In this document: positions 35,519 to 47,234 of the stretch, one piece after another
How positions within the stretch are numbered: the first letter of the stretch is position 1
Layout of the letters: each line of letters starts with the position of its first letter
Virus record (IMG/VR): IMGVR_UViG_3300037483_001334
DNA: 64,000 nucleotides
From: a virus
Reading direction: 5' to 3' (one strand)
Program-made: the position numbers and the translations under genes
Notes under the pieces: generated by a model
Database searches by the model: none
What the model was told of the DNA's origin: nothing
The model's input: only the letters and a program-made list of their open reading frames with translations

Positions 35519-35522
35519 TCAT

Positions 35523-35595: not shown

Positions 35596-35601
35596 TTTTC
35601 T

Positions 35602-35870: not shown

Positions 35871-35873
35871 TTT

Positions 35874-35948
35874 CGGGGTAAGGGCCCGCTGGAGGGCCAC
35901 CTGGTTTGGATCCAGGCAAACTGATGGGTTCGACTCCCATTACCCCGA
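35874..35948 (+). tRNA. tRNA-Pro(TGG)
   Basis: anticodon stem CCTGG/CCAGG loop TTTGGAT. Confidence 0.75.
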
Positions 35949-36084
35949 CTCGGAGCGTCTTGGCGGAAGTGGCATACGCAGCTGGTAGTAGGGAGCGTCA
36001 TCTCCCGGGGCCAGCCGGAGCAAGCGGCAGATGACCTGTCCGATCTTGCCCTTGTTGGTTCGAGTCCAGCGGACAATCCGATTC
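35949..36084 (+). other. unassigned structured segment in the tRNA array (possible degenerate tRNA; T-arm-like GTTGG-TTCGAGT-CCAGC)
   Basis: 6-bp long-range stem GTCATC...GATGAC; no matching acceptor found. Confidence 0.25.
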
Positions 36085-36155
36085 GGGGTCATCGTACAAC
36101 GGGCGTACGTTGCGTTCGCATCGCAAAAATCGGGGTTCGATTCCCCGTGACTCCA
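36085..36155 (+). tRNA. tRNA-Ala(CGC)
   Basis: G3:U70 identity pair; anticodon loop TTCGCAT; T-arm CGGGG-TTCGATT-CCCCG. Confidence 0.75.
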
Positions 36156-36162
36156 GTCTCAT

Positions 36163-36238
36163 GGTGAACGTAGTGTAGTGGCTTCTGCACGTCCGACTGT
36201 GATCCGGAAGGTGGCGAGTTCAATCCTCCCCGTTCACC
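36163..36238 (+). tRNA. tRNA-His(GTG) with encoded G-1 and C73
   Basis: Anticodon loop CTGTGAT; 8-bp acceptor with G-1:C73; A·C at 31·39; one T-stem mismatch. Confidence 0.55.
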
Positions 36239-36241
36239 CTT

Positions 36242-36315
36242 GCTCTCGTAGCTCAGCAGGATAGAGCCCTTGTTTCCTAAACGAGAGGTCGAGTGTTCGA
36301 ATCACTCCGAGAGCG
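36242..36315 (+). tRNA. tRNA-Arg(CCT)
   Basis: acceptor GCTCTCG/CGAGAGC; loop TTCCTAA; T-loop TTCGAAT. Confidence 0.8.
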
Positions 36316-36323
36316 ATTCTAAA

Positions 36324-36396
36324 CGGCACGTAGCACAGTGGTTAGTGCACTCCGCTGATACCGGAGAGATCGCTGGTTCAAGTCCAGCCGTGCCGA
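36324..36396 (+). tRNA. tRNA-Ile(GAT)
   Basis: D-arm GCAC-AGTGGTTA-GTGC; loop CTGATAC; T-arm GCTGG-TTCAAGT-CCAGC. Confidence 0.85.
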
Positions 36397-36459
36397 TCCG
36401 CAGCGCGCGAGCGGGTTCCATGGGCCTGCTCGGGATGGCCATCCAACCTGCGGAACCAA
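36397..36459 (+). other. 58-nt tRNA-like remnant (7-bp acceptor-like stem TCCGCAG...CTGCGGA)
   Basis: inverted termini, too short for a tRNA. Confidence 0.25.
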
Positions 36460-36532
36460 CGTCGCATAGCTCAGCTAGAAGAGCGCCTGCTCGACATGCA
36501 GGAGGTCCCGGGGGCAGTTCCCGGTGCGACGA
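36460..36532 (+). tRNA. tRNA-Val(GAC) with non-canonical T-loop (GGCAGTT) and C33
   Basis: Perfect acceptor CGTCGCA/TGCGACG; D-arm GCTC-AGCTAGAA-GAGC. Confidence 0.55.
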
Positions 36533-36767
36533 TCCCTCGTAGTTCAAAGGAAGAACTGCCGAAAAACGAAACGGCGCTCGTAACAGACATCGTCTCGCCT
36601 GCTACGCGAACGCCTGTGGCAAGTAGTGGTGTGGGTAGCTCTCGAAGGTTGCGGATGCACCGAATGGCACGAAGGACTCGGGTCGCTAGGGAAGCGAGTT
36701 TTCCTGAACAGGGAGCGCGGTGACGATGGTCCGGGTTCGATTCCCGGCGAGGGAGCTAGTTGGCCTT
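36533..36767 (+). ncRNA. split or intron-containing tRNA-like element: canonical 5' acceptor + D-arm and 3' T-arm + acceptor separated by ~170 nt
   Basis: 5' TCCCTCG-TA-GTTC-AAAGGAA-GAAC; 3' CCGGG-TTCGATT-CCCGG-CGAGGGA-G, exactly complementary to the 5' acceptor. Confidence 0.35.
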
Positions 36768-37169
36768 GGAGACGGTGGTCTGCAACGATCCTGGCGTCGG
36801 CCTGGCCGCCTTCTGCATCAGGTCCGTGACGACGCCGGCCAGAGCGTCCATGGTCATCTCCTTGCGGCGGCTGGTGCGGATGATTCGGTCCTCCCAGTTG
36901 ATGTCGATCGCCTCGTTGTACGTGACCTCGCGGCCGTCATCGCGCGCGACGCGCTCGGACTTCATGATGTTCTCGTCGACCACCTGCTCGAACTCGCGCC
37001 CCGCGATGATGATGGCGGTGGCGAGAGCGTGGTCGTCGACGCCGCTGAGGGTCGGCTCGGGCCGGTTCATCAGCGAGTAGTCGAGCTTATGCTCCTTGAC
37101 GCGGTACGCGATGAGCAGCCCGTCGGCGAGTTCTCGAAGCAGCTTCTCTGGCAGGTCTGTGGTCGGCAT
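36756..37169 (-). CDS. hypothetical protein
   Basis: minus ORF 137 aa. Confidence 0.35.
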   Translation of the reverse strand: MPTTDLPEKLLRELADGLLIAYRVKEHKLDYSLMNRPEPTLSGVDDHALATAIIIAGREFEQVVDENIMKSERVARDDGREVTYNEAIDINWEDRIIRTSRRKEMTMDALAGVVTDLMQKAARPTPGSLQTTVSKAN

Positions 37170-37314
37170 GGTCGACGATGGTACGGGACGCCTTCAGGGC
37201 GTGCAACGGGCTCGTGGTGAAGCGGGATCACACGACCATGGCATGGTCGGTTCGCCAGTTCGATTCTGGCCGAGTCCACTTGTAGCTCATGTAGGAGTGC
37301 GCTACGTTCGTCGC

Positions 37315-37818
37315 ATGAGTGAAAAACGAACGGTGACGGCCAGGTACATCACAAAGGGCGAGCCGTACGTTCGTGTAAAACTGTCGGACAAAACCGTGAT
37401 GCGTGAGCATCGGTTTGTCATGGAAGAAGAGCTTGGGCGCAGGCTTGATTCTAGCGAACACGTCCATCACAAGGACGAAAACAAGCGTCGCAACGATCCC
37501 GGCAACCTAGATCTGACGACCCTGTCTGACCACAGCAAGCATCACGCGCCGCACGCACCGATGGTGCGATTGAGATGCCGTGTTTGCGGAACCGAGTTCG
37601 AGCGCAAAGACCGATACGTCAGATCGAAGAGAAAAACAGGCGCATCGACGCTCTACTGTAGCAACGCGTGCTCACGTCGCGGCACGTCGGCAGCCCGTGG
37701 CATCGTCCACGGAACGAGCATGGCGTACAACCAGAACGGGTGCCGCTGCGAGACGTGCAAGGAGTACAAGCGGCAGCAGAACGCTGCGGCGAAGAAGAGA
37801 CGAGAGTCTGCGGCATAG
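37315..37818 (+). CDS. HNH homing endonuclease
   Basis: EHVHHKDENKRRNDPGNLDLTTLSDHSKHH; C-terminal Cys-rich region. Confidence 0.75.
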   Translation: MSEKRTVTARYITKGEPYVRVKLSDKTVMREHRFVMEEELGRRLDSSEHVHHKDENKRRNDPGNLDLTTLSDHSKHHAPHAPMVRLRCRVCGTEFERKDRYVRSKRKTGASTLYCSNACSRRGTSAARGIVHGTSMAYNQNGCRCETCKEYKRQQNAAAKKRRESAA

Positions 37819-37880
37819 GCCCTAGGGTAGGGCACGTGGTTGCCATCCACGACTTAGCGGGTTCGATCCCCGCATGCCGC
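37810..37880 (+). tRNA. tRNA-Gly(GCC), U73
   Basis: loop TTGCCAT; T-arm GCGGG-TTCGATC-CCCGC; overlaps the HNH gene stop by 9 nt. Confidence 0.8.
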
Positions 37881-37887
37881 TTCATGC

Positions 37888-37960
37888 GGGCCCATAGCTC
37901 AGCCAGGAGAGCGCCTGTTTTGCACGCAGGAGGTCACCGGAGCGAAGCCGGTTGGGTCCA
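37888..37960 (+). tRNA. tRNA-Ala(TGC) with non-canonical T-loop AGCGAAG
   Basis: G3:U70; loop TTTGCAC. Confidence 0.65.
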
Positions 37961-37988
37961 GTGACGTCGGATGTGCATATAGGCTATC

Positions 37989-38492
37989 GTGTCCCGAGCA
38001 AATACCACAGAACGATTTGCCATGACAGCAGAGCAGCTGGCCTGGCTGGCCGGGCTCCTTGAGGGCGAAGGCTCCTTCATGAAGGGCCCACCGTCGAAGC
38101 CCGGAGCGCCATGCGTGGCCGTGTCGATGACCGACCGAGACGTTGTTGAACGTGCTGCGGCATTGATGGGAGTGTCTTGCCAGGGCCCCTACCTCCGCAA
38201 GAACCTGAAAGTGTGGAAGCCGTACTACATGGCGACGGTACGCGGGTATCCTGCCGCCGATCTGATGAAGCTCTTGCGAGATCACATGGGAGCAAGGAGG
38301 AGGGCTCAGATCGACGCGGCCATGGCAACGTTCAGCGTGAAGCATCGTCAGAAGATCCAAAAGTCGCGTGTCTTGGAGATCAAGGTCATGCTGGCGGAAG
38401 GCCGCGGAGACCGTGAGGTGGCCCGCCATTTCAGGTGTGCTCATAGCTTGATCGGACGCATCAGGAGAGGAGAGTCGTACGCACAGGTCTAG
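37989..38492 (+). CDS. single-motif LAGLIDADG homing endonuclease with C-terminal HTH-like tail
   Basis: LAWLAGLLEGEGSF. Confidence 0.8.
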   Translation: MSRANTTERFAMTAEQLAWLAGLLEGEGSFMKGPPSKPGAPCVAVSMTDRDVVERAAALMGVSCQGPYLRKNLKVWKPYYMATVRGYPAADLMKLLRDHMGARRRAQIDAAMATFSVKHRQKIQKSRVLEIKVMLAEGRGDREVARHFRCAHSLIGRIRRGESYAQV

Positions 38493-38499
38493 AGTTTCT

Positions 38500-38570
38500 G
38501 CCCACGCAGCACGAAGGTCGTGCCACTCCCTCGTAGCGAGTAGGTTGGGGTTCGATTCCCCACGTGGGCT
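38500..38570 (+). tRNA. tRNA-Thr(CGT)
   Basis: acceptor GCCCACG/CGTGGGC; loop CTCGTAG; C·C at 31·39. Confidence 0.6.
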
Positions 38571-38573
38571 TCT

Positions 38574-38644
38574 GCCGGCGAAGCATCAAGGGATGCAGCA
38601 CCCCTGTAAGGTGAAAGCGGCGAGTTCGATTCTCGCAGCCGGCT
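38574..38644 (+). tRNA. tRNA-Thr(TGT)-like, copy A (C33)
   Basis: D-arm GCAT-CAAGGG-ATGC, loop CCTGTAA, T-arm GCGAG-TTCGATT-CTCGC; identical ~80-nt copy at 39158-39238. Confidence 0.55.
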
Positions 38645-38703
38645 ACTGGTTGACAATGGAACGACCGAGATGAGAGACTTCGGGCTCTCAAAGGAGCCCG
38701 CAC

Positions 38704-39096
38704 ATGAGCAACACGAGCATCATCATCGAGCACGGAACGTCGGACGCCGAGATCGTCGCAGGTGGCAGCTACATCAGCGAGGTGCAGGTACTGTCCGGGG
38801 TTCACTACACGCGCGTCGGCGACCGCGTCAGCTTCTCCGTGAAGCTGAGGCTGCTGTGGGCAGATGCGGGCGGTGGAAACTTGCAGATTCCGCTGCCGGT
38901 TCCGACCGGCAACGCCGAGAACGCGAAGTTGGTCGCCGTCTGCGTGATCGACGGCGGTCCTGGGTACGGCTTCGTCAGCGAAACGCAGTGCGCCGGCTCG
39001 CCGCCGTATCTGTACGTGGCGTTGGTCGCAGATGCGGGCGTGACCGAGACGACGCTGGCGATTCACGCCGACTATCTCGTCGTCGCGAGTGAGTAG
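38704..39096 (+). CDS. hypothetical protein (130 aa) inserted between duplicated tRNA sequences
   Basis: ORF with RBS aaaggag; flanked by direct repeats. Confidence 0.4.
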   Translation: MSNTSIIIEHGTSDAEIVAGGSYISEVQVLSGVHYTRVGDRVSFSVKLRLLWADAGGGNLQIPLPVPTGNAENAKLVAVCVIDGGPGYGFVSETQCAGSPPYLYVALVADAGVTETTLAIHADYLVVASE

Positions 39097-39167
39097 AGGT
39101 TCCTGCCGCCAAGGTGGAGACAGCGACACGCATCCCCGTTGGAGTTCGATTCTCCCCGTGGGCTTCT

Positions 39168-39238
39168 GCCGGCGAAGCATCAAGGGATGCAGCACCCCTG
39201 TAAGGTGAAAGCGGCGAGTTCGATTCTCGCAGCCGGCT
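39168..39238 (+). tRNA. tRNA-Thr(TGT)-like, copy B
   Basis: identical to copy A; preceded by a partial T-arm/acceptor remnant (39139-39165). Confidence 0.55.
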
Positions 39239-39363
39239 TGTGCTAGTGCCGCCAAAGCCTAGACAGCGAGGTTCCCGCTTGACCCCGCTACCAGCAGCCG
39301 GCAGTGCCAATAACCATCGCGTTTGGCGTTTGACGCATCAAGCACCCCCGTGCGACGCTGCGT

Positions 39364-40062
39364 TTGATGAATAGAAGTGAGGCCGGTCGGCGTGGGTGGG
39401 AGGCCAGTAGCAAAAAGCTGCGAGCCCAGTTGGACGCCAGGGTTGCTGCTGCCAAGGAGAAAGTGGCCGCAAAGGCTTGTCGCCATTGTGGTGTGCCAAT
39501 CCCGTATGAGCGAAGGCGCCACGAGTGTTGCAGTCATAAGTGTGCGTCGGAGCTGAGGTTTCCATCTGCCGGCCGTGTCGTACGCGTTTGCTTTTGCGGA
39601 AATAGAATCACGGGTAAGGACGCTGCGGCGAAGCAGGCCTGTTCGCGAAAATGCTCTCATGAGCAAAAGCATGCCGAGTACATCGTACGCTGGCTGAACG
39701 GTGACGAAGTTGGCGGCGGTTGGGACGCTGTTTCGGAACACGTCAGAAGGTGGTTGATCGAAAAATACGGCGAACAGTGCAGCCAGTGTGGTTGGGCATG
39801 TAGGCATGCGAAGACCGGACGGGTGCCGATACAGGTTGATCATGTTGACGGCGATCCGTATAATCACCGACCTGAGAACCTGCGGCTTCTGTGTCCGAAC
39901 TGCCATTCGCTGACGGATACATACGGCGGCCTGAACTCTGGCCGAGGTCGCAAAGAGCGCGGCGTCAAACGTGCTGTTCTCGCCTTCAAAGCTCAAGAAG
40001 AAGAGCGTCTGCTTGGTATGCAGGAGGTTGCCGGTGCAATGCCGGTTGAAGGCTCTGGCTAG
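39364..40062 (+). CDS. HNH homing endonuclease
   Basis: IQVDHVDGDPYNHRPENLRLLCPNCHSLT. Confidence 0.75.
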   Translation: MMNRSEAGRRGWEASSKKLRAQLDARVAAAKEKVAAKACRHCGVPIPYERRRHECCSHKCASELRFPSAGRVVRVCFCGNRITGKDAAAKQACSRKCSHEQKHAEYIVRWLNGDEVGGGWDAVSEHVRRWLIEKYGEQCSQCGWACRHAKTGRVPIQVDHVDGDPYNHRPENLRLLCPNCHSLTDTYGGLNSGRGRKERGVKRAVLAFKAQEEERLLGMQEVAGAMPVEGSG

Positions 40063-40063
40063 C

Positions 40064-40134
40064 GCGATCGTGGTCAAGTGGCTTGGCCTTGGGCTTCCAA
40101 CCCAATGACGCGTGTTCGATTCACGCCGATCGCT
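40064..40134 (+). tRNA. tRNA-Gly(TCC), U73
   Basis: acceptor GCGATCG/CGATCGC; loop CTTCCAA; T-arm GCGTG-TTCGATT-CACGC. Confidence 0.8.
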
Positions 40135-40206
40135 TCTCGGGCCGATGTTGTTGGTTACCGCAAATGGAGCCGTTGGTGTAGGTTCGATTCCTGCCGCCCT
40201 GCTGTC
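40135..40206 (+). other. tRNA-like segment with canonical T-arm (GTAGG-TTCGATT-CCTGC) but no resolvable acceptor
   Basis: manual folding failed; needs tRNAscan/ARAGORN. Confidence 0.25.
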
Positions 40207-40210
40207 TATG

Positions 40211-40235
40211 TAGGGTGTAGTTCAATGGTAGAACG
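40211..40235 (+). pseudogene. truncated tRNA 5' fragment (acceptor + D-arm TAGTTCAATGGTAGAAC only)
   Basis: no anticodon/T-arm/3' acceptor downstream. Confidence 0.3.
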
Positions 40236-40263
40236 ACGTTAAATCTCCGACGACGCCCCTTGT

Positions 40264-40333
40264 CCGAGAATCTGGAGCGGTCCTTCTGGGAAGGCCGACG
40301 ATTGCAACCCGTCGAGAGGTCTGTTCGATCCAG
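40264..40333 (+). tRNA. tRNA-Cys(GCA)-like, U73, short D-arm, A·C at 31·39
   Basis: acceptor GGAGCGG/CCGCTCC; loop TTGCAAC; T-arm GTCTG-TTCGATC-CAGAC. Confidence 0.4.
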
Positions 40334-40339
40334 ACCCGC

Positions 40340-40405
40340 TCCTTTCTGGCCGAAGTGGAACGGTTATCGTCTCGTAAACGAGAGGCCCAGGTTCGAGCCC
40401 TGGTC
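40340..40405 (+). other. tRNA-like segment (T-arm CCAGG-TTCGAGC-CCTGG; possible TAA anticodon region) not resolved
   Basis: manual folding ambiguous. Confidence 0.25.
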
Positions 40406-40412
40406 ATCGCCG

Positions 40413-40438
40413 AAAGGTGGTGGTAGCTTAGTGGAAGA
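40413..40438 (+). pseudogene. truncated tRNA 5' fragment (GTGGTGG-TA-GCTT-AGTGGAA-GAGC-G) lacking a 3' half
   Basis: tRNA-Arg starts 37 nt downstream, leaving no room for the rest. Confidence 0.3.
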
Positions 40439-40474
40439 GCGCTAAACACCGGGCTGCATCCCTTGCCAGATATT

Positions 40475-40548
40475 GCTGCGGAGGCCGCAGAGGAAGCGGC
40501 GCCCGTTTTCTAAACGGGAACTTGAGGGTTCGACTCCTTCCCGCAGCG
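40475..40548 (+). tRNA. tRNA-Arg(TCT)
   Basis: acceptor GCTGCGG/CCGCAGC; stem CCCGT/ACGGG, loop TTTCTAA. Confidence 0.8.
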
Positions 40549-40555
40549 TGGTTCT

Positions 40556-40627
40556 GTCTGCTTGGTGAAATGGATATCACTCTTCGCTACGAACGAAGCA
40601 TTTCGGGTTCAAGTCCCGAGGCGGACA
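40556..40627 (+). tRNA. tRNA-Arg(ACG)
   Basis: D-arm GTGA-AATGGATA-TCAC; stem CTTCG/CGAAG, loop CTACGAA. Confidence 0.8.
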
Positions 40628-40634
40628 TGGTCGA

Positions 40635-40706
40635 GTTCTCGTCGTTCAACTGGAAGGACACTAGCCTCCGAAGCTAGGAATCGGCGTTCAACTCGCCGCG
40701 GGAACG
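40635..40706 (+). tRNA. tRNA-Arg(CCG)
   Basis: stem CTAGC/GCTAG, loop CTCCGAA; T-arm CGGCG-TTCAACT-CGCCG. Confidence 0.75.
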
Positions 40707-40708
40707 TG

Positions 40709-40787
40709 CTTGTGCGGCGCAGATGGAGATGTCAGGGAGGGTTCATACCCCTTTCAAACCGGGCGCAACTCCCGGGGCCGCAATCAG
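40709..40787 (+). other. tRNA-like segment (possible CAT anticodon; T-loop CGCAACT) unresolved
   Basis: acceptor mismatch and poor D-arm. Confidence 0.25.
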
Positions 40788-40790
40788 TTA

Positions 40791-40860
40791 CGCTGCGTCC
40801 TGATGGTCAGGAATCCGTCTCATACGCGGGTTACCGCGGGTTCGACTCCCGCCGCAGCGA
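40791..40860 (+). tRNA. tRNA-Met/Ile2(CAT)-like with minimal D-arm
   Basis: acceptor CGCTGCG/CGCAGCG; loop CTCATAC; T-arm GCGGG-TTCGACT-CCCGC. Confidence 0.45.
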
Positions 40861-40863
40861 TCT

Positions 40864-40938
40864 CGGGGTGTGGCTCAACCTGGTTAGAGCGCTCGGTTCG
40901 GGTCCGAGAGACTGGCGGTTCGAATCCGCCCACCCCGA
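40864..40938 (+). tRNA. tRNA-Pro(CGG)
   Basis: acceptor CGGGGTG/CACCCCG; D-arm GCTC...GAGC; loop TTCGGGT; T-loop TTCGAAT. Confidence 0.85.
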
Positions 40939-41071
40939 TGGTTCACGGCTCCCCGCCGTGGGCGCTCGTCAGGCTTGCCTGGCGAGCTACTGCACGACGA
41001 CTCAGCTAGCGACGAGGGCGGTCCTACACACCGTTTTTGCAGGGGGCGGAACCCTGGTCGTGCATCGAATC

Positions 41072-41144
41072 GCCGACGTAGCCCAACGGCAGAGGCAGCC
41101 GCTTCAGAAGCGGCACAGTGGTGGTTCAAATCCACTCGTCGGCA
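41072..41144 (+). tRNA. class-I-like tRNA with Leu anticodon CAG (short variable arm), A73
   Basis: D-arm GCCCAACGGCAGAGGC; stem GCCGC/GCGGC loop TTCAGAA; T-loop TTCAAAT. Confidence 0.6.
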
Positions 41145-41149
41145 TGTTT

Positions 41150-41223
41150 GCGCAGGTAGCCCAACTGGCAGAGGCAACGGACTAAGAATCCGTCAAGTGA
41201 GGGTTCAACTCCCTCTCTGCGCA
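41150..41223 (+). tRNA. class-I-like tRNA with Leu anticodon AAG, A73
   Basis: same D-arm family; stem ACGGA/TCCGT loop CTAAGAA. Confidence 0.6.
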
Positions 41224-41228
41224 TCTCG

Positions 41229-42041
41229 TTACCGGCGTCCGAGCTTCAGAACGTTCGGCGCCTTCTTGTTCCACCACCAGAGCTGGAGGCCTACGAGGCC
41301 GATCAGTCCGATGGTCGCGTACTTCCAGTTGTCACTGACGTCGCCGAGTCCGCGCATGCCACGCGAGGTGCCGCTGCGCACGGCGCCGCCGGCTCCGCCT
41401 GGGTGCTTGCCCATCACGCGTGGTCCGCCTCCGCGGTAGGTCATGGCCGATGGCCGCTGCCCCGAGCGCGCGCTCGGCATTCCACGGTGAACCATCGGGC
41501 TGCCGCCCGGGGCAAGCGGCTTCATGCTCGGGCCGCCGCGGTGCACCATGTCTCGGGCTGGTCCTCCGGCGGAAGGCCCCGGTCCTGGAGACCACCGCGG
41601 TCCGCCGCCCGGTCCACGTGCGCTGGGCCCGGCTCCTGGAGACCGAACGGGGCCATTGCCGGGAGCGCCGGGTCCACGTGCGCTCGGTCCCAGGCCTGGA
41701 TGCCAGCTCGGACCACCGCTCGGCCCGCCTGGCCCGCCCGGCTTGCGACCTCCCCAGCGGGGCCCAGGGCCACGAGGCCGGCGACGGCGCCACGGAACGC
41801 CGCTTCCGCTCCAGCCGCCGTCTCCGCCGCTCCATCCCCAGCCGCCGCCGTAGAAGTATGACTGGTCGGCAGGGGGCAACAACGCTTCGAGTCCTGGCTC
41901 GCAGCCGTACTCCCAGAGGACGCCAGCGGCATCTGCTTCGCACGAGTTCCGGTAGCAGCGGCCAGTGAACTGATCGTGGACGGGATCGGTTGCGTCGTCG
42001 CAGTACCCGAGCCGGCTGGGGATCGTAGAGAAGGTCGACAT
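41229..42041 (-). CDS. Pro/Gly-rich protein with C-terminal TM anchor
   Basis: internal ATG of minus ORF; TM YATIGLIGLVGLQLWWW; coding strand uncertain in this GC-rich repeat region. Confidence 0.3.
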   Translation of the reverse strand: MSTFSTIPSRLGYCDDATDPVHDQFTGRCYRNSCEADAAGVLWEYGCEPGLEALLPPADQSYFYGGGWGWSGGDGGWSGSGVPWRRRRPRGPGPRWGGRKPGGPGGPSGGPSWHPGLGPSARGPGAPGNGPVRSPGAGPSARGPGGGPRWSPGPGPSAGGPARDMVHRGGPSMKPLAPGGSPMVHRGMPSARSGQRPSAMTYRGGGPRVMGKHPGGAGGAVRSGTSRGMRGLGDVSDNWKYATIGLIGLVGLQLWWWNKKAPNVLKLGRR

Positions 42042-42113
42042 GTCGCCGATGCTAGCACAGCATCGGAAGAGCTTGCATCCCAGGAGCTTGCGACATACTA
42101 TCGCGCAATCAAT

Positions 42114-42187
42114 GCGGACGTAGCCCAACGGCAGAGGCACCGGATTCAAGTCCCGGTCAGGTGTGGGTTCGAATCCCACGGTCCGCA
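42114..42187 (+). tRNA. class-I-like tRNA with Leu anticodon CAA, A73
   Basis: D-arm GCCCAACGGCAGAGGC; loop TTCAAGT; A·C at 31·39; T-loop TTCGAAT. Confidence 0.55.
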
Positions 42188-42208
42188 ACAACACGATTGA
42201 GGCACATC

Positions 42209-42778
42209 ATGGAGAAGAGAGCGCTGGTTCTGGTCGAGGAGAAGAGAACGCCGATCGTGATCGCCGAGAGGAAGGTTCTCGTCCTGAACATGTACTACCA
42301 GCCGGAGCGCATCGTCGACTGGCAGCGTGCCGTCTGCCTCATCTACGACGGCAAGGCAGACCTCATCGAGAGGTACGAGGGTGAGCTGCTGCGCTCTCCG
42401 AGCATGTCGATGGAGTTCCCGTCGGTCATCCGGAAGACGAAGAAGTCGCGGATGCGGAAGGTCTCGATCAAGTTCTCGCGGCAGAACGTGCTGCTGCGTG
42501 ACGGGAACACCTGTCAGTACTGCCAGGTGCCCTTCGAGCCGAGGGAGCTGAACTACGATCACGTCCTTCCCAGGTCGCGCAAAGGCAAGACCGAGTGGGA
42601 CAACATCGTGATGTCCTGCTACCCGTGCAACGAAAAGAAGGGCGACAGAACGCCGGCCGAGGCCAAGATGCAGCTGAAGCGCGCGCCGCGAAAGCCCGAC
42701 TGGCTTCCCATCGTCAGCAAGCGCTTCGACCTCGGCGCGGTGCCGGAGACCTGGCGGCCGTACCTGGTCGCGGCATGA
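42209..42778 (+). CDS. HNH endonuclease (McrA-like)
   Basis: CQYCQVPFEPRELNYDHVLPRSRKGKTEWDNIVMSCYPCNEKKG. Confidence 0.75.
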   Translation: MEKRALVLVEEKRTPIVIAERKVLVLNMYYQPERIVDWQRAVCLIYDGKADLIERYEGELLRSPSMSMEFPSVIRKTKKSRMRKVSIKFSRQNVLLRDGNTCQYCQVPFEPRELNYDHVLPRSRKGKTEWDNIVMSCYPCNEKKGDRTPAEAKMQLKRAPRKPDWLPIVSKRFDLGAVPETWRPYLVAA

Positions 42779-42990
42779 GCAACCACGACAACCATCGTCG
42801 CGAAGACGTGAAGCGCACGGAGAACGGCCCGCGGTGGAAGACCACGGGCAACTATCCAAATCCGCCGCAGGTCGCCCGCGCGCGTCGCTCCTGGAAGCGC
42901 CTTCTGGCGAGAAAGGAGCGGCATGCGGGTGGCCTGTGCAATCCGTTCTGGGTTGGCAGGCCACGTCGGCCAGACGGTGGGGGCGAGTGA
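42775..42990 (+). CDS. small basic protein
   Basis: ATGA overlap with the HNH gene. Confidence 0.3.
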   Translation: MSNHDNHRREDVKRTENGPRWKTTGNYPNPPQVARARRSWKRLLARKERHAGGLCNPFWVGRPRRPDGGGE

Positions 42991-43556
42991 CGCTCGATCT
43001 GGACAGCTGGGTCGTCGACCAGGTCCGGAAGGTCGTGCGCGAGTACGAGGATGGCGAATGCTCGTTGGGGTCCGTGTCCACGCGGCTGTACGATCTGCTG
43101 GAGCATGCAGGCGTAGACGACATTCTGGCGCCGTTGCCATGGTGGCTGCGTGCTGAAGTGGTCCAGGACATCGATCAGTACCGCGGCGCGACACGTGAGA
43201 GCATGCTGTTCTTCGGCGGTGAGTGCGCCGGAGCCGCGTATGATCGCGAGGCTGAGAAGGCGAAGAGCTTCGATCGGTTTTTCGGTAAGGTCTATCCGAA
43301 GATGCTGGCCTGGCATCAGGCGAACACGCGTACAGATCGGTGGCCGGTGTCGGTCTGCCTCTGGTGGGGTGACGACACGGTGTTTGGCCCCGACGCGCTG
43401 TCGGCGGAACGTCCGCGTCGACATCGGAAGAGGTACTTGACGCGCGAGGAAAGAAAAGACCCGGTTCTGCGTCAGAGGCACGTGCGTGTCCGTGCGACGC
43501 TGGAAGCGATGGCCGAGGTCGAGCGGGGGCGGGAGGTCGCACATGGACTCGCGTGA
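42988..43556 (+). CDS. hypothetical protein (GTG start)
   Basis: GTGA overlap; frame of ORF 42834..43556. Confidence 0.35.
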
Positions 43557-44187
43557 AGCTCTTGCAGACGAGAATCCGGACGCGCTCTGGCCGGACGGCT
43601 TCGAGGAGGCGTACATTGGTCACGCGCGCCGGTGTGGCCAGCCGCCGCTCGCCGCGTTCTCCGTGCGAAAGTGCATCGAGATCTTGATGAAGCGCGACGG
43701 CATGACGCACGAAGAGGCCGAATCGGACGCTACGACGCGCTGCCGCCGCTCAGGCAGAAGTTCGGGTACTACTGGTAGATCTCGGGGTGTCGCCCAAGGG
43801 TTGGGCACGCGGCTGGGGGCCGCGACCATGCAGGTTCGAGTCCTGTCACCCCGATGGAGAACGATGGGCAAGCGCAAGGTCCAGCATCACAACGCAGTCG
43901 CCGCTCGCGCTCTCGAAGCGTTCGCGAACGCGGCGCGCGCGGTCGGCTCACGGCTGAGTCACGGGCTCGACAAGGTCGCAGACGTGATCGATGCTGCTGC
44001 TGAGCATCTCTGGGACGAGCGCGAGCCTAGCGAAAGTTACTTGGTGAAGGAGTGCAGCCTCTGCGACGATACAGGCCACACCAGCGGCGGCTGGCACTCG
44101 GGTCCATGCTTCTGTCCGATGGGTGTTCTGCGAGAAGAGGGCGAGAAGCTCGGCATCATCAAGCCCGGTCCGGACGAGGAGAACTGA
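43542..44187 (+). CDS. hypothetical ORF with a tRNA-Pro(GGG) embedded in frame; the protein may be only the part downstream of ATG 43864
   Basis: the continuous frame spans the tRNA; C-terminal part has CSLCDDTGH...CFCP. Confidence 0.25.
43783..43854 (+). tRNA. tRNA-Pro(GGG)
   Basis: acceptor CGGGGTG/CACCCCG; D-arm GCCC-AAGGGTT-GGGC; stem CGCGG/CCGCG loop CTGGGGG. Confidence 0.75.
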
Positions 44188-44258
44188 CGCATGACGCATG
44201 AACGTAAGGGGGCGGTCTTCTAGCTCTCGGGGCACTTCGCTCCGAGCCCGGAGGACCA

Positions 44259-44435
44259 ATGGCTCGAACCTGGCATCACAGCGACAATCACAGTCCGCAC
44301 TTTCCTAACGGCGCACCGAAGTGGTATCGCCAGAATCTGAATCGGCTGTACCGCGCCCGCGTGAAACATCTGGTTCGCACGCAGCGCTATGAGCGCATCA
44401 CCCGTCCCGTACGTGACGCAGCATGGTACTGGTAG
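44259..44435 (+). CDS. small His/Arg-rich protein
   Basis: RBS GGAGGA. Confidence 0.3.
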   Translation: MARTWHHSDNHSPHFPNGAPKWYRQNLNRLYRARVKHLVRTQRYERITRPVRDAAWYW

Positions 44436-44556
44436 GAGAGCACATGAGAGAGCGAATCAAGAACGCGTTGGCGGCGCTCGCATGGCCACCGGTGGCCGTG
44501 CTGCTGGTGTGTATGGGCTTTCGACCTGCGGGCGGCCGCGGCTCACGGCGGGCCTG

Positions 44557-44919
44557 ATGCTCGTCGAGGTCTACCGTAACCTGAACCGGAAGTGCCTGAG
44601 TATTCGCGACCCTGAGATGCGGAAGGTCATCGGGCACGTCGACAGCGTGCTTCTTCTCGGCGCGCGCTTCGTTGTGTCGGAGGCAGGGCGGCAACGAGTG
44701 CTCCGCACGCGTCAGAAGAACGTGCATGCGGTAGTGCGTGGGATCATGGTCGCTCAGCCGACGCGGGCGCCGGAGTGGAAACGAGTACGCTACGATCCGT
44801 ATGCCGCCGAGACGTTCGTGTGGCAGGAGACTGGAGAGCCGGCGTATGGAGCGTGCCGGGTCTACATCGGACCAGAAGGCATGTACGCTGAGAAGCCACT
44901 AGAGATTTCTGGAAGCTGA
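44557..44919 (+). CDS. hypothetical protein
   Basis: internal ATG of ORF 44389..44919. Confidence 0.3.
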   Translation: MLVEVYRNLNRKCLSIRDPEMRKVIGHVDSVLLLGARFVVSEAGRQRVLRTRQKNVHAVVRGIMVAQPTRAPEWKRVRYDPYAAETFVWQETGEPAYGACRVYIGPEGMYAEKPLEISGS

Positions 44920-45409
44920 ACTGGTCACGGGACCAGGCCCCGTTGCTAGCGGGTGCGTCGCCGAAAGGCGTTGGCGTTCAAGTCGTCCGGCTTCCGTGTG
45001 AGAGAAGAACGTCCGAATCATGATTTGCCGTATCTCGTAGCAGCCGTGCGGCGCGCGAGATGGGGTACAGTGCCGAAAGACTTGCTTGGCCGGCTGCGTA
45101 CTCGACAGGGTCAGGCGATCGGACGGGCACTATTCAGGCACGGCAAGCTGTCGAAGAGCATGCAGCGGAAGGTTTGTGCGATTCGACTTCTTGCCCTGGG
45201 TCCAAATGGAGGGAGAACCGGGAAGGTCCCGGGCCTGTCTGGAAAGCAGGTGGCGGCGTGAGCCGCAGGGGATCGTTACCTCCTCTCTCCGTTTCTGGAA
45301 GGTGAACCTACAAGGCGTAGGACCGGCTTCGAATACCGGCGGCCCCTCGGGGCAGAGATTCGAATTCTCCTCCTTCCTTTTCGTGTCCGTGTCTTGTGCG
45401 AGGTGATGA

Positions 45410-46117
45410 ATGGGTAAGCGCGTGTGGATCGAGCTGGCTCCGCTTGTTGCGTCTGGGCCCGTAGATCCGATGACCGGGATGGTATCGGTCGAGCCGTACA
45501 CGTGGACGGCGCGACTGTCGTGTGGCCACGGCAAGCCGCACGCCGTGTCCGTATTCGCATCGTCTGGCGATCCGATCTGGTGTGACGAGTGCGATGGCAC
45601 CTGCCTCGCTTGCGGCGCGCCAGCTACGACTTGTGTCGACAACACGATCGACTGGGGCGAAGCCTGCGAGACGTGTGCGGCCTTGCCCAAGAAGACCTGG
45701 CCAGCGCGAGTTGAGGCCCATCGCTTCAACATCATGTCGGACGAAGAGCACCTCGACGTGGCTGCGCACTTCGCCAAAGTCGGCATGAGCTACGAGCGCA
45801 AGGCCGCGGACCGAAAGGGCAAGTTCTGGGATGAGCCGCGGAAGTCGCCGCTGTGGTGGACGCATACGCGTGATGGAACAGCAGCAAGCGCGAAAGAGAT
45901 GTTTGCGAAGAGCGCGATGCACTTCATCGCGGCGTTCGTGAGTGAGCGTCCGGCGTACGCGCACGACACTCGTGCCATCGGAGCGTGTGTCGTCTGCCAG
46001 CGCATCGTGACAGGGTCCGTGCCGGCGGTGCTGGTCGACAACCGCAGGAGCGGGTATGGTGGGCGAGTCGCTCACCTCATGTGCTGGGAAGAGAAGGGTG
46101 CGAAATGGAAAGCGTGA
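45410..46117 (+). CDS. Cys-rich hypothetical protein
   Basis: ORF 235 aa. Confidence 0.4.
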   Translation: MGKRVWIELAPLVASGPVDPMTGMVSVEPYTWTARLSCGHGKPHAVSVFASSGDPIWCDECDGTCLACGAPATTCVDNTIDWGEACETCAALPKKTWPARVEAHRFNIMSDEEHLDVAAHFAKVGMSYERKAADRKGKFWDEPRKSPLWWTHTRDGTAASAKEMFAKSAMHFIAAFVSERPAYAHDTRAIGACVVCQRIVTGSVPAVLVDNRRSGYGGRVAHLMCWEEKGAKWKA

Positions 46118-46789
46118 TCGTAGAGATTCGAGCTGGCGAAGGTGGCGCAGACGCCAAGGACTTGGTCCGCGAGCAGTTCGGCGTGTACGCCCGGCTGATG
46201 GAGCGGAGGGGTCTTTGACTTCGCTCTCGTAGATGAGCGCAGCGGCTTCCTCTCGTTCCAAGCGAGCGGCAAGGGAGCGCGTGAGACGTTCTCGCGAGAG
46301 TCAGGAGGGCACCGATGGCAGCGCGTGCCGCCCTCTGAGAAGCGTGGCCGCGTTCAGACATCGACGGTGACCGTTGCGGTGCTGGAAGAGCCGAAGGCGG
46401 CTGCGGTTCAGATCGAAGAGCGCGACGTCGAGTGGTCGACGTGCCGTGGCTCTGGTGCCGGAGGTCAGCATCGGAACGTCACCAACAGCGCGGTGCAGAT
46501 GGTGCACCTCCCGACCGGGCTTCGAGTGCGCGTCGAGAACGAGCGCTCGCAGCATGCGAACCGTGAGATCGCCCTGAGGATCTTGCGCGCGCGCATCCAC
46601 GAGCAGCGCGAGACCGCGAGCACGGCGGCACGGTCAGACAGTCGCCGGCAGCAAGTCGGCAGCGGTGAGCGCGCGGACAAGGTGCGGACGATCCGCGCAC
46701 AGGACGGACAGGTAACCGATCACCGATCCGGACAGCAAATCCGATACAAGGACTACGTCCGAGGAAACTGGGACGGCTTGTTCAGATAA
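46105..46789 (+). CDS. truncated class-I peptide chain release factor (RF1-like domains 2-4 with GGQ; tripeptide-motif position reads PPS) requiring a +1 programmed frameshift at CUU UGA C (46213-46219)
   Basis: Frame 0 (46105-46218) gives MESVIVEIRAGEGGADAKDLVREQFGVYARLMERRGL*. The +1 frame from 46217 continues the homology (ESGGHRWQRVPPSEKRGRVQTSTVTVAVLEE...GSGAGGQHRN...GQVTDHR) to 46789. GGAGG lies 3 nt upstream of CTT, as in prfB. Confidence 0.7.
46205..46219 (+). promoter_or_regulatory. prfB-type +1 frameshift element: internal Shine–Dalgarno GGAGG, 3-nt spacer, CUU UGA C
   Basis: cggaGGAGGggtCTTTGAC. Confidence 0.65.
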
Positions 46790-46876
46790 CGCTTGCACAG
46801 CGTTTCGCAGCATGCGACAGTCTTTTCCCGGTCGGTCAGCCGTTCGCAAGGACGGCTGGCCACCGGGTGCGCCTCT

Positions 46877-46960
46877 GGAGGGTGAAGCTACACGGCGTAG
46901 CGCGGGCCTTGAAAACCCGGTCTGTGGTAACCCCACGGGGTTCGAATCCTCCGCCCTCCG
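46877..46960 (+). tRNA. tRNA-Ser(TGA), type II, G73
   Basis: loop CTTGAAA; long variable arm TGTGG-TAACC-CCACG; C·A at 31·39. Confidence 0.6.
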
Positions 46961-46979
46961 TCTTCGGTTCCTGTTCACT

Positions 46980-47053
46980 GTCCCATTCGTCTAGATGGCC
47001 AAGGACGCCGGCCTCTCACGTCGGCAACGGGAGTTCAAATCTCCCATGGGACG
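46980..47053 (+). tRNA. tRNA-Glu(CTC)
   Basis: acceptor GTCCCAT/ATGGGAC; loop CTCTCAC; T-arm GGGAG-TTCAAAT-CTCCC. Confidence 0.8.
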
Positions 47054-47077
47054 TTCTCTTCTCTGGGCTTGGTTCTT

Positions 47078-47191
47078 TGTGCTGCACACCGGGTAGGCTC
47101 TAGTAGGCCTGTGCCGGTCGGTAGTAGGCGGCGTGCTAGCGCTGTGTACTGTCTGGGTCATACGGTTCGATTCCCCGTGCAGCCACCTTTT
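47078..47191 (+). ncRNA. YrlA-like RNA candidate (Ro60-associated tRNA mimic): terminal 7-bp stem GCTGCAC/GTGCAGC enclosing a tRNA-like T-arm, then CCACCTTTTCC
   Basis: T-loop GGTTCGATTCC but no tRNA acceptor; repeated GTAGTAGGC motifs; immediately upstream of the Ro60 gene. Confidence 0.35.
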
Positions 47192-47234
47192 CCCTGACAG
47201 CTGGGTTGTCGGGTTGTTCGTCTGGGAGGTTCCG

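What the first reader, a model, noticed from the sequence alone, without database searches (positions are those of the whole stretch)
41072..42187. Three class-I-architecture tRNAs with leucine anticodons (CAG, AAG, CAA) sharing one D-arm
All three have the D-arm GCCCAAC(T)GGCAGAGGC, an A73 discriminator and a 5-6 nt variable loop in place of the long type-II arm universal in bacterial tRNA-Leu. A34 in the AAG species is also unusual for bacteria. They may be phage-specific Leu decoders tolerated by LeuRS through A73, or tRNAs charged with another amino acid.
Basis: partly seen in the sequence, partly recalled or inferred. Interest (0 to 1): 0.65.

Follow-up and report, generated by a model that had tools for sequence, protein, structure and literature searches.

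The report
Short-arm leucine tRNAs in a phage
The three short leucine tRNAs are real, but they belong to an already known short-arm tRNA-Leu type that is common in actinobacterial chromosomes and in many phages, so this is an ordinary member of a poorly publicised family.

Summary
Three 73-74 nt tRNA genes with anticodons CAG, AAG and CAA lie at 41072-41144, 41150-41223 and 42114-42187 (+). They share the D-arm GUAGCCCAAC(U)GGCAGAGGCA, A73, A15/U48 and a 5-6 nt variable loop.

- The same D-arm marks single-copy chromosomal tRNA genes, mostly in Actinomycetota: 119 of 119 carry Leu anticodons and are 73-77 nt long.
- It also marks 106 of 107 tRNAs found in viral contigs.
- Short tRNA-Leu genes are already annotated in phages of Mycobacterium, Streptomyces, Enterococcus, Bacillus, Vibrio and E. 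coli.
- A model built only from the chromosomal genes scores the three window genes 69-86 bits. The next best window tRNA scores 54.5.
- Fan et al. 2019 showed that Streptomyces coelicolor LeuRS leucylates a type I tRNA-Leu(CAA).

Best reading: these are ordinary Leu-accepting decoders in a roughly 40-gene phage tRNA array. If A34 is deaminated to inosine, the three would together read 99.9% of the window's Leu codons. Mischarging finds no support.

Verdict: new members of a known kind, low to moderate interest. Open questions are why phages so often use the short form, and whether A34 is modified.

The parts
41072..41144 (+). Type I tRNA-Leu(CAG), 73 nt. Parsed as GCCGACG UA GCCCAACGGCAGAGGC A GCCGC UUCAGAA GCGGC ACAGU GGUGG UUCAAAU CCACU CGUCGGC A. 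No encoded CCA.
   Evidence: ARAGORN. Rfam tRNA 57.4 bits. Chromosomal type I Leu model R1 81.6 bits. Parsed.
41150..41223 (+). Type I tRNA-Leu(AAG), 74 nt, with A34. The anticodon loop CUAAGAA differs from the window's tRNA-Arg(ACG) loop CUACGAA only at position 35. Variable loop CAAGU. A73. No encoded CCA.
   Evidence: ARAGORN. Rfam 57.4 bits. R1 85.5 bits. Loop comparison.
42114..42187 (+). Type I tRNA-Leu(CAA), 74 nt, with a 6-nt variable loop UCAGGU. It has an A31.C39 mismatch, a G7.G66 mismatch and the unusual loop UUCAAGU (G37). The same loop and a 31/39 mismatch occur in Streptomyces phage Wakanda tRNA-Leu and in an IMG/VR 447-kb contig (L047).
   Evidence: ARAGORN. Rfam 42.6 bits. R1 69.1 bits. 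Comparisons.
34854..49833 (+). The surrounding single-strand tRNA array that the three genes belong to. It holds 30 ARAGORN tRNAs, 4 seen only by Rfam, and several weaker tRNA-like elements. It is interrupted by HNH endonuclease genes, a Ro60-like gene, an ArfB-like gene and small ORFs.

Best explanation
The three genes are phage-borne members of the type I (short variable loop) tRNA-Leu family. The host leucyl-tRNA synthetase charges them with leucine. LeuRS does not read the anticodon and does not need the long arm. It recognises the acceptor end, the U8:A14 and A15:U48 core and the Leu-type D-loop, all of which are kept here.

The genes sit in a tightly packed array of roughly 40 tRNAs. This array gives a large, high-GC phage, probably an actinophage, its own near-complete decoding set. 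CAG reads CUG and CAA reads UUG. AAG is most likely deaminated to IAG and would then read CUU, CUC and CUA.

Shown here: the genes, their fold, their family membership and the strict coupling of this D-arm to Leu anticodons. Taken from the literature: a type I tRNA-Leu is leucylated by an actinobacterial LeuRS. Inferred: charging of these particular tRNAs, their expression, addition of CCA and I34 formation.
For: (1) The tRNA calls and folds are solid.

(2) The D-arm GCCC-AAY(N)GGYAGA-GGC has the same 3-bp stem and AAYnGGYAGA loop as long-arm tRNA-Leu of phages. Examples are GCGG-AAUGGCAGA-CGC in Wakanda's 84-nt tRNA and many IMG/VR type II Leu tRNAs. E. coli Leu identity elements are A73, A15:U48, G18G19 and A20a, and the long arm is dispensable (PMC9976931). 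All of these elements are present.

(3) A genome scan for the D-arm returned 120 loci, about 100 of them Actinomycetota. It yielded 119 tRNAs, all with Leu anticodons (taa 81, caa 20, tag 13, gag 3, cag 2) and all 73-77 nt long. In 106 loci this was the only tRNA in 8 kb.

(4) An IMG/VR scan found 107 tRNAs with the D-arm, 106 of them with Leu anticodons and all short.

(5) A73 is present in 217 of 218 and U48 in 213 of 218. RNAalifold on 98 members gives a cloverleaf in which 18 of 21 pairs show compensatory changes.

(6) A covariance model built from 43 chromosomal members only scores the window genes 85.5, 81.6 and 69.1 bits. The best other window tRNA scores 54.5.

(7) Each window gene is 81-86% identical to family members elsewhere, but at most 72% identical to any other tRNA in the window.

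(8) S. coelicolor LeuRS leucylates its type I tRNA-Leu(CAA), with kcat/Km 6.25 against 14.2 s-1 uM-1 for type II (PMC6614811).

(9) Leu codon usage in 42 ORFs supported by GC3 is CUG 41%, CUC 40%, UUG 9%, CUU 8%, CUA 2% and UUA 0.1%. CAG + IAG + CAA would therefore cover 99.9%.

(10) Streptococcal TadA deaminates tRNA-Leu(AAG) (PMC13249217). The window's Leu(AAG) and Arg(ACG) anticodon loops differ only at position 35.

(11) Other large viral contigs carry all-type-I Leu sets while Ser and Tyr stay long. L248 has cag/gag/caa, L344 has five and L047 has five. This matches the known dependence of SerRS, but not LeuRS, on the long arm.
Against: No experiment bears on these particular genes, so expression, CCA addition, charging and modification are all inferred. 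The host is unknown.

E. coli LeuRS did not charge the S. coelicolor type I tRNA-Leu, and one Streptomyces LeuRS (S. purpurogeneiscleroticus) also failed (PMC6614811). Charging competence therefore depends on the host.

I could not obtain the S. coelicolor tRNA sequence. Its variable loop ACAGC ends in C48, whereas this family has U48, so it may be a sister lineage rather than the same D-arm family.

The invariance of the D-arm in my samples is partly circular, because the D-arm was the search key. The CAA gene has two mismatches (G7.G66 and A31.C39) and the lowest scores.

I34 is unproven. No deaminase motif was found in the window, and actinobacterial TadA has not been tested on a Leu(AAG) substrate.
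Confidence: 0.85

Rival explanations
1. The short arm is an adaptation, not just inheritance. On this view, phages favour type I tRNA-Leu because it escapes host toxins or nucleases that select class II tRNAs by their long arm. An alternative version is that a minimal Leu tRNA is accepted by many LeuRSs. The window's set would then be a defence-proof replacement for host tRNA-Leu. This adds a layer to the best explanation rather than replacing it.
For: In viral loci fetched for unrelated reasons, 18 of 33 Leu-anticodon tRNAs are short. Whole Leu sets are type I in L248, L344, L047 and this window, including the CUN decoders. Among the 119 chromosomal tRNAs that carry this D-arm, by contrast, 114 have UAA, CAA or UAG anticodons and only 5 have GAG or CAG; my scan did not survey chromosomal long-arm Leu tRNAs.

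Short tRNA-Leu is also carried by phages of E. coli, Salmonella, Enterococcus, Bacillus and Vibrio. The Felix-O1-type gene has no match in 5,426 complete E. coli genomes.

[quoted passage not shown] Evasion of tRNA-targeting defences by phage tRNA variants is established for anticodon loops (PMC10264068, listed).
Against: No toxin has been shown to spare type I tRNA-Leu. Actinobacterial hosts themselves carry type I tRNA-Leu, so simple capture from the host followed by anticodon change explains actinophage cases. LeuRS ignores the anticodon, which makes such shifts easy. My viral sample is small and not random. Gene-size economy or drift would give the same pattern.
Confidence: 0.15
2. The tRNAs are charged with an amino acid other than leucine, giving deliberate recoding or mistranslation of CUG, CUY and UUG codons. 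Precedents are yeast mitochondrial tRNA-Thr(UAG) and Ashbya mitochondrial tRNA-Ala(UAG).
For: They are class I tRNAs with Leu anticodons, which is the architecture of those precedents (PMC7609411). Charging has not been measured.
Against: The 3:70 pairs are C-G, G-C and G-C, so there is no G3:U70. All anticodon loops are 7 nt. The genes do not resemble any other isoacceptor in the window (at most 72% identity). The same D-arm, A73 and U48 sit in single-copy chromosomal Leu(UAA/CAA) tRNAs of Actinomycetota. I infer, but did not test, that those tRNAs carry leucine, because their loci look like ordinary housekeeping genes. These codons make up essentially all Leu codons of the phage's own genes, so reassignment would rewrite every protein.
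Confidence: 0.03
3. One or more of the three genes, especially the CAA gene with its mismatches, are decaying or non-translational tRNA-like elements. They might be relics of duplication, homing-endonuclease cargo, or decoys.
For: The CAA gene has G7.G66 and A31.C39 mismatches and a low Rfam score of 42.6 bits. It lies apart from the other two and next to an HNH endonuclease gene. The array also contains several degenerate tRNA-like elements.
Against: The same UUCAAGU loop with a mismatched 31/39 pair recurs in Wakanda (C.A) and L047 (C.A). This points to a conserved variant rather than decay. The CAA gene still scores 69.1 bits on the family model. The CAG and AAG genes have clean cloverleaves. 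UUG is 9% of Leu codons and would otherwise lack a phage tRNA.
Confidence: 0.05

Closest known systems
Streptomyces coelicolor type I tRNA-Leu(CAA) (Fan et al., NAR 2019, PMC6614811)
   Same: It is a bacterial tRNA with a Leu anticodon and a 5-nt variable loop (ACAGC, against ACAGU in the window's CAG gene). It has U8:A14, G18G19, the T-loop and A73. It coexists with long-arm tRNAs and is leucylated by the single LeuRS.
   Different: It is chromosomal and a single isoacceptor (CAA). It has C48 rather than U48. I could not retrieve its sequence, so a shared D-arm is unverified. The window has three type I isoacceptors, including CUN decoders, and no type II Leu.
Chromosomal type I tRNA-Leu of Actinomycetota (Mycobacterium, Nocardia, Gordonia, Corynebacterium, Arthrobacter, Microbacterium, Bifidobacterium and others), found here
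   Same: The D-arm UAGCCCAAY(N)GGYAGAGGCA is identical, as are A73, U48, A26, the 5-nt variable loop and the length. Identity to the window genes reaches 85%.
   Different: The anticodons are almost only UAA, CAA and UAG, and none of 119 has AAG. G1-C72 predominates there; the window genes also have G1-C72, whereas many phage copies have G1.U72. Most loci hold just this one tRNA in the 8 kb fetched.
Annotated short tRNA-Leu genes of cultured phages: Bixzunavirus (Bonray gag 74 nt, caa 75 nt), Streptomyces phage Wakanda (74 nt), Enterococcus EFDG1 (tag), Felix-O1-like wV8, Bacillus P59, Vibrio KVP40-like V09
   Same: They share the D-arm family, A73 and the 5-nt variable loop. They lie in tRNA arrays and are already labelled tRNA-Leu in GenBank.
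   Different: They are only 75-81% identical to the window genes, and no close relative of the window phage exists in INPHARED or IMG/VR. Most of these phages also keep a long-arm Leu tRNA. None of those I inspected has AAG.
Canonical bacterial class II tRNA-Leu
   Same: Shared features are the Leu anticodons, A73, A15:U48, the 3-bp D-stem with the AAYnGGYAGA loop, and the anticodon-independent LeuRS identity.
   Different: It has a variable arm of 10 nt or more, which is absent here. It usually carries G37 after NAG anticodons and A37 after YAA. The window shows the reverse: A37 with CAG and AAG, and G37 with CAA.
Animal mitochondrial tRNA-Leu
   Same: It has a short variable loop, A73 and A14 as identity elements, and is charged by a LeuRS without use of a long arm.
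   Different: It is an organellar tRNA with a degenerate structure and a dedicated mitochondrial LeuRS. S. coelicolor LeuRS does not charge it.
tRNA-Leu(IAG) of Lactobacillales (PMC13249217)
   Same: The gene encodes A34 in a Leu tRNA, and no GAG isoacceptor accompanies it. TadA converts A34 to I34, which extends reading to CUU, CUC and CUA.
   Different: Its hosts are low-GC Bacilli and, as far as I know, it is a type II tRNA (not checked here). In the window it is a type I tRNA in a 64% GC phage, and I34 is only inferred.

Membership tests
Type I (short variable loop) tRNA-Leu | Cloverleaf with a variable loop of 4-6 nt and no extra arm; at least 5 nt is needed for leucylation in S. coelicolor | tested here: met
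   The variable loops are ACAGU, CAAGU and UCAGGU. The 5-nt minimum is from PMC6614811.
Type I (short variable loop) tRNA-Leu | Leucine anticodon (NAG or YAA) in a 7-nt loop with U33 | tested here: met
   CAG, AAG and CAA are called by both ARAGORN and Infernal.
Type I (short variable loop) tRNA-Leu | Leu-type core: U8:A14, A15 with U48, G18G19, A20a-type D-loop AAYnGGYAGA on a 3-bp D-stem, and A73 | tested here: met
   All elements are present in the three genes. The elements are listed in PMC9976931. The same loop occurs in type II Leu tRNAs.
Type I (short variable loop) tRNA-Leu | Scores higher on a family-specific model than tRNAs of other isotypes | tested here: met
   Model R1, built from 43 chromosomal members, gives 85.5, 81.6 and 69.1 bits. 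The next window tRNA scores 54.5. tRNAscan-SE isotype models were not available.
Type I (short variable loop) tRNA-Leu | Aminoacylated with leucine by LeuRS | not testable with these tools
   This is shown only for S. coelicolor tRNA-Leu(CAA) (PMC6614811). E. coli LeuRS failed on that substrate.
Canonical bacterial class II tRNA-Leu | Long variable arm of 10 nt or more forming a stem-loop | tested here: not met
   The genes are 73-74 nt with 5-6 nt variable loops.
Identity-switched class I tRNAs with CUN anticodons (mitochondrial tRNA-Ala(UAG), mitochondrial tRNA-Thr(UAG)) | G3:U70 (Ala identity), or an 8-nt anticodon loop with descent from another isoacceptor (Thr) | tested here: not met
   The 3:70 pairs are C-G, G-C and G-C, and the loops are 7 nt. 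Identity to any other window tRNA is at most 72%. The precedents are described in PMC7609411.
I34 tRNA-Leu (AAG gene read as IAG) | A34 encoded, with no GAG isoacceptor alongside | tested here: met
   AAG lies at 41184-41186. No Leu(GAG) was found in the window by ARAGORN, Rfam or R1. Only the 64-kb window could be checked.
I34 tRNA-Leu (AAG gene read as IAG) | A34 deaminated to inosine by TadA | not testable with these tools
   The loop CUAAGAA differs from the Arg(ACG) loop CUACGAA at one position. No deaminase motif is present in the window. Codon usage makes I34 advantageous.

The most novel reading that the evidence does not exclude
Short-arm tRNA-Leu may be the preferred architecture of phage-encoded tRNA-Leu across host phyla. 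This would include phages of hosts that have no such tRNA themselves; this was checked only for E. coli, whose LeuRS also failed on the one type I substrate tested. Loss of the arm would then be an adaptation. It would make the phage's Leu decoders invisible to host toxins or nucleases that pick class II tRNAs by their long arm. This window's all-type-I Leu set (CAG, AAG, CAA) would be one instance. I found no paper in the searchable library that describes this phage-wide pattern.
Probability: 0.15. Interest if true: 0.65.

Novelty: new member of a known kind. Interest (0 to 1): 0.3.

Why it matters
For this window it matters little. The genes are correctly read as tRNA-Leu, and annotation pipelines already label such genes that way.

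Two wider points came out of the check.

First, the textbook statement that bacterial tRNA-Leu is always class II fails for much of Actinomycetota and for roughly half of the phage tRNA-Leu genes I sampled. This is relevant to isotype models, to the design of orthogonal Leu tRNAs, and to LeuRS-targeting drugs in mycobacteria.

Second, phages of hosts that lack type I tRNA-Leu also carry it. That poses a testable question about LeuRS recognition and about evasion of defences directed at class II tRNAs.

The A34 Leu gene in a high-GC phage would extend the known range of bacterial I34 if confirmed.

Tried and rejected
- Megablast of 3 kb around the genes against INPHARED found no match, so there is no close cultured relative.
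- A Ro60-protein search of IMG/VR gave relatives of 46% identity at most. Orthologous copies of these exact tRNAs could therefore not be compared.
- An exact-protein look-up found only a 6.6-kb Logan contig from SRR12684493, which gave no clue to the host.
- The S. coelicolor tRNA-Leu(CAA) sequence could not be obtained.
- The Streptomyces hit in that scan (L139) is only a truncated 5' half of a tRNA, not a gene.
- A regex scan for a CDA/TadA-type deaminase motif in all six frames gave only a spurious Cys-rich match.
- The sigma-70 promoter and terminator scan of 40.4-42.4 kb found nothing.
- Literature searches for a prior description of short-arm tRNA-Leu in phages found none. The only relevant paper is Fan et al. 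2019, which does not mention phages.
- The Rfam minus-strand hits to 'Plastid-ycf2 5'UTR' are below threshold. By my reading that model is the antisense of a plastid tRNA, so I dismissed the hits as general tRNA similarity.
- ARAGORN's acceptor register, shifted by 1 nt for the AAG and CAA genes, was rejected in favour of the Infernal register.
Full report
**Observation.** ARAGORN finds 30 tRNA genes on the + strand between 34.8 and 49.8 kb. Its alignments show 7-nt anticodon loops with U33 and short variable loops.

Parsed, the genes read as follows:
- GCCGACG-UA-GCCCAACGGCAGAGGC-A-GCCGC-UUCAGAA-GCGGC-ACAGU-GGUGG-UUCAAAU-CCACU-CGUCGGC-A
- GCGCAGG-UA-GCCCAACUGGCAGAGGC-A-ACGGA-CUAAGAA-UCCGU-CAAGU-GAGGG-UUCAACU-CCCUC-UCUGCGC-A
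- GCGGACG-UA-GCCCAACGGCAGAGGC-A-CCGGA-UUCAAGU-CCCGG-UCAGGU-GUGGG-UUCGAAU-CCCAC-GGUCCGC-A

The shared 20/21-mer occurs three times in the window and never in 100 shuffles. None of the genes encodes CCA. The only long-arm tRNAs in the window are Tyr (85 nt) and Ser (86 nt).

**The same genes elsewhere in phages.** A sensitive blastn of the CAG+AAG pair against 50,697 phage records hit 108 records over 60-70 ungapped bases. The features under the hits are annotated tRNA-Leu genes of 74-77 nt:
- Streptomyces phage Wakanda
- Mycobacterium cluster C phages (Bonray: gag 74 nt and caa 75 nt, next to a cag of 86 nt)
- Enterococcus EFDG1 (TAG)
- Felix-O1-like wV8
- Bacillus P59 (two genes)
- KVP40-like Vibrio phage V09

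Aligned, all share GUAGCCCAAY(N)GGYAGAGGCA (cluster C and EFDG1 with one or two changes), a 5-nt variable loop ending in U, and A73.

Of the 107 tRNAs that carry it, 106 have Leu anticodons (taa 65, tag 20, caa 14, aag 3, gag 3, cag 1). All are 73-78 nt long.

**The same genes in bacterial chromosomes.** About 100 of the 120 loci are Actinomycetota. They include Mycobacterium, Nocardia, Gordonia, Rhodococcus, Corynebacterium, Arthrobacter, Microbacterium, Amycolatopsis, Nocardioides, Bifidobacterium and acidimicrobial MAGs. The remainder are mostly Planctomycetota, with single hits in Myxococcus, Chloroflexaceae and others.

ARAGORN finds 119 tRNAs with the pattern. All have Leu anticodons (taa 81, caa 20, tag 13, gag 3, cag 2) and are 73-77 nt long. 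In 106 loci it is the only tRNA in 8 kb, so it looks like an ordinary chromosomal gene and not part of a phage array.

Features that were not part of the search key are equally conserved:
- A73 in 118 of 119 genomic and 99 of 99 viral copies
- U48 in 119 of 119 genomic and 94 of 99 viral copies
- U8-A9 and A26, invariant

RNAalifold on 98 members, including the three window genes, returns the cloverleaf with a 5-nt variable loop. In 18 of 21 pairs compensatory changes preserve the pair. That phylum is also the likeliest host group of this phage.

**An isotype-style test.** tRNAscan-SE was not available. I instead built a covariance model from 43 chromosomal members only, with no phage or window sequence, and searched the whole window with filters off. 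The three genes score 85.5 (AAG), 81.6 (CAG) and 69.1 (CAA) bits. The best other tRNA, Lys UUU, scores 54.5. Each gene gains 24-28 bits over the general tRNA model. By pairwise identity each is 81-86% like family members from other contigs, 77-79% like its two neighbours, and at most 72% like any other window tRNA. The genes are thus old members of the family. They are neither recent duplicates nor anticodon mutants of another isotype.

**What is known about this kind.** Fan et al. (PMC6614811) found that S. coelicolor has four long-arm tRNA-Leu genes and one type I tRNA-Leu(CAA), with variable loop A44C45A46G47C48. Their main results:
- The single LeuRS leucylates both types, with kcat/Km 6.25 against 14.2 s-1 uM-1.
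- Five variable-loop nucleotides are the minimum for charging.
- U8:A14 and C74 matter, whereas A73 is not an identity element for that enzyme.
- E. coli LeuRS and one other Streptomyces LeuRS cannot charge the type I species.

For E. coli LeuRS, the identity review lists A73, A15:U48, G18G19 and A20a as determinants. It states that neither the anticodon nor the long arm is needed (PMC9976931). The window genes keep all of these elements. Their D-arm has the same 3-bp stem and AAYnGGYAGA loop as long-arm tRNA-Leu, for example GCGG-AAUGGCAGA-CGC in Wakanda's 84-nt gene and many IMG/VR type II genes.

One caveat applies. I could not retrieve the S. coelicolor sequence. Its C48 differs from the U48 of this family, so it may be a sister lineage.

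**How it most likely works.** Host LeuRS charges the three tRNAs with leucine after CCA addition; this step is inferred. In 42 window ORFs with the GC3 signature of real genes, Leu codons are CUG 41%, CUC 40%, UUG 9%, CUU 8%, CUA 2% and UUA 0.1%. CAG covers CUG and CAA covers UUG. An unmodified AAG would serve only the rare CUU and leave CUC to the host. IAG would read CUU, CUC and CUA, so the trio would then cover 99.9% of Leu codons.

The other four-codon boxes with a recognisable Y-reading tRNA in the array use G34: Pro GGG, Ala GGC, Gly GCC, Val GAC and Thr GGU. Only Arg(ACG) and Leu(AAG) have A34. Their anticodon loops, CUACGAA and CUAAGAA, differ at one position. Streptococcal TadA deaminates tRNA-Leu(AAG), and almost all bacterial Leu(AAG) genes lie in Bacilli (PMC13249217). 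A34 is therefore genuinely unusual here, and I34 is a reasonable but unproven inference. I rate it at about even odds.

**Rivals.**
- Mischarging. There is no G3:U70, no enlarged anticodon loop and no kinship with another isoacceptor. Reassigning these codons would rewrite every phage protein.
- Decay. This is conceivable only for the CAA gene, which has G7.G66 and A31.C39 mismatches. However, its odd loop UUCAAGU with a mismatched 31/39 pair recurs in Wakanda and in a 447-kb IMG/VR contig. That argues for a maintained variant.
- Adaptive evasion. In viral loci fetched for unrelated patterns, 18 of 33 Leu-anticodon tRNAs are short. Three other large contigs carry entirely type I Leu sets while Ser and Tyr stay long. 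Felix-O1-type short tRNA-Leu has no counterpart in 5,426 complete E. coli genomes. Abortive-infection and TA nucleotidyltransferases (AbiEii, MenT3) reportedly prefer class II tRNAs. I therefore keep open, at about 15%, the reading that phages favour the short form to escape effectors directed at class II tRNAs. Capture from actinobacterial hosts plus easy anticodon change, since LeuRS ignores the anticodon, is the simpler account for this window.

**Context.** The window is 64% GC. It has no close relative in INPHARED or IMG/VR. Around the tRNAs it carries:
- a Ro60-like gene whose best matches are in Gordonia and Mycobacterium phages
- a Phage_L5_gp82 family protein, an ArfB-like RF-1 domain protein and an RlaP nucleotidyltransferase
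- three HNH endonucleases

An actinophage, possibly a large one, is likely but not shown.

**Verdict.** The genes are new members of a known kind: type I tRNA-Leu, which has been characterised biochemically in Streptomyces, is widespread in Actinomycetota and is already annotated in many phages. Interest is low to moderate at 0.3. The residual value lies in two things, for which I found no description in the searchable literature: the breadth of the short form among phages, and the A34 gene. The array also contains stranger items than the one flagged, notably tRNAs that lack the canonical D-loop/T-loop elbow. These are listed under things noticed in passing.

Noticed in passing
window 35719-35791, 36460-36532, 39982-40054, 40713-40783, 40992-41064 (+): Five tRNA-like genes have good acceptor and anticodon stems. 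By eye their anticodons are GAA Phe, GAC Val, GGU Thr, CAU and UAC Val. Their T-loops lack UUC (GGCAGUA, GGCAGUU, UGCAAUG, CGCAACU, GGCGGAA) and their D-loops lack GG. They therefore have no canonical G18G19/T54-Psi55-C56 elbow, much like tRNA-Pyl or mammalian mitochondrial tRNAs. ARAGORN misses all five and Rfam passes three. An IMG/VR scan for the GGGGGCAGUWCCC T-arm was mostly chance matches, but at least six (up to nine by acceptor pairing) were similar tRNA-like genes in other viral contigs (L282, L302, L307, L318, L344, L355). This may be more unusual than the finding I was given.
   Followed up: partly
window 47133-48941 (+) and 48949-49012 (+): A Ro60/Rsr orthologue (TROVE 2e-45 and Ro60 vWA 5e-59) sits inside the tRNA array. 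Eight bases downstream lies a 64-nt stem-bulge RNA that passes the Rfam gathering score for RF01656 (nematode sRNA ceN72-3_ceN74-2; these are, from my own recollection, stem-bulge Y-RNA-like RNAs), at 40.3 bits against 38. It is likely a phage Ro plus Y-RNA pair. The best protein matches are Ro-like proteins of Gordonia and Mycobacterium phages and a Sinorhizobium jumbo phage, at about 46% identity.
   Followed up: partly
window 46325-46789 (+), 31332-32276 (+): Two translation or RNA-repair accessory genes lie near the array. One is a 154-aa RF-1 (GGQ) domain protein that looks like the ribosome-rescue factor ArfB/YaeJ (Pfam 1.4e-30). The other is an RlaP nucleotidyltransferase of the RNA-repair pathway family (8e-20).
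   Followed up: no
window 38544-38644 and 39138-39238 (+): A 101-nt direct repeat (97% identity, spacing 594) carries identical 71-nt tRNA-like genes at 38574-38644 and 39168-39238. The two copies flank a 130-aa ORF at 38704-39096. The anticodon loop reads CCUGUAA on a 4-bp stem, so position 33 would be C if the anticodon is UGU (Thr). This looks like a duplication made by an insertion.
   Followed up: partly
window 41072-41223 and 42114-42187: Position 37 is the reverse of the usual bacterial rule. The CAG and AAG genes have A37, where G37 (m1G37) is usual after G36. The CAA gene has G37-U38, where A37-A38 (the i6A site) is usual. In the family, UAG mostly has G37, while UAA and CAA mostly have A37. 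No explanation was tested.
   Followed up: no
family-wide (alignment A2): A G1.U72 wobble closes the acceptor stem in 55 of 99 viral type I tRNA-Leu, but in only 20 of 119 chromosomal ones. The three window genes have G1-C72.
   Followed up: no
window 42161-42778 (+), 37096-37818 (+), 8172-9083 (+): Three HNH endonuclease genes are present, two of them inside the tRNA array. One starts about 20 nt after tRNA-Leu(CAA). This suggests that homing elements shuffle the array.
   Followed up: no
window 41229-42041 (-): [quoted passage not shown] It encodes a protein of about 270 aa that is rich in Gly, Pro and Arg and has a C-terminal hydrophobic segment (ATIGLIGLVGLQLWWW). The coding strand is uncertain, because a + strand ORF at 41420-41968 also shows high GC3.
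   Followed up: no
window 35523-35595, 35601-35674 (+): Two further tRNA genes are missed by ARAGORN and by Rfam at gathering threshold, but were found with the custom model. One is a second GUU (Asn-like) tRNA and the other has anticodon CCA (Trp). The array therefore holds about 40 tRNA or tRNA-like genes rather than 30.
   Followed up: partly
L139 (Streptomyces sp. NPDC060205), about 6444-6463 (-): The D-arm match here is only the 5' half of a type I tRNA-Leu followed by unrelated sequence. It is probably an attachment-site remnant of an element that integrated into the tRNA gene.
   Followed up: no
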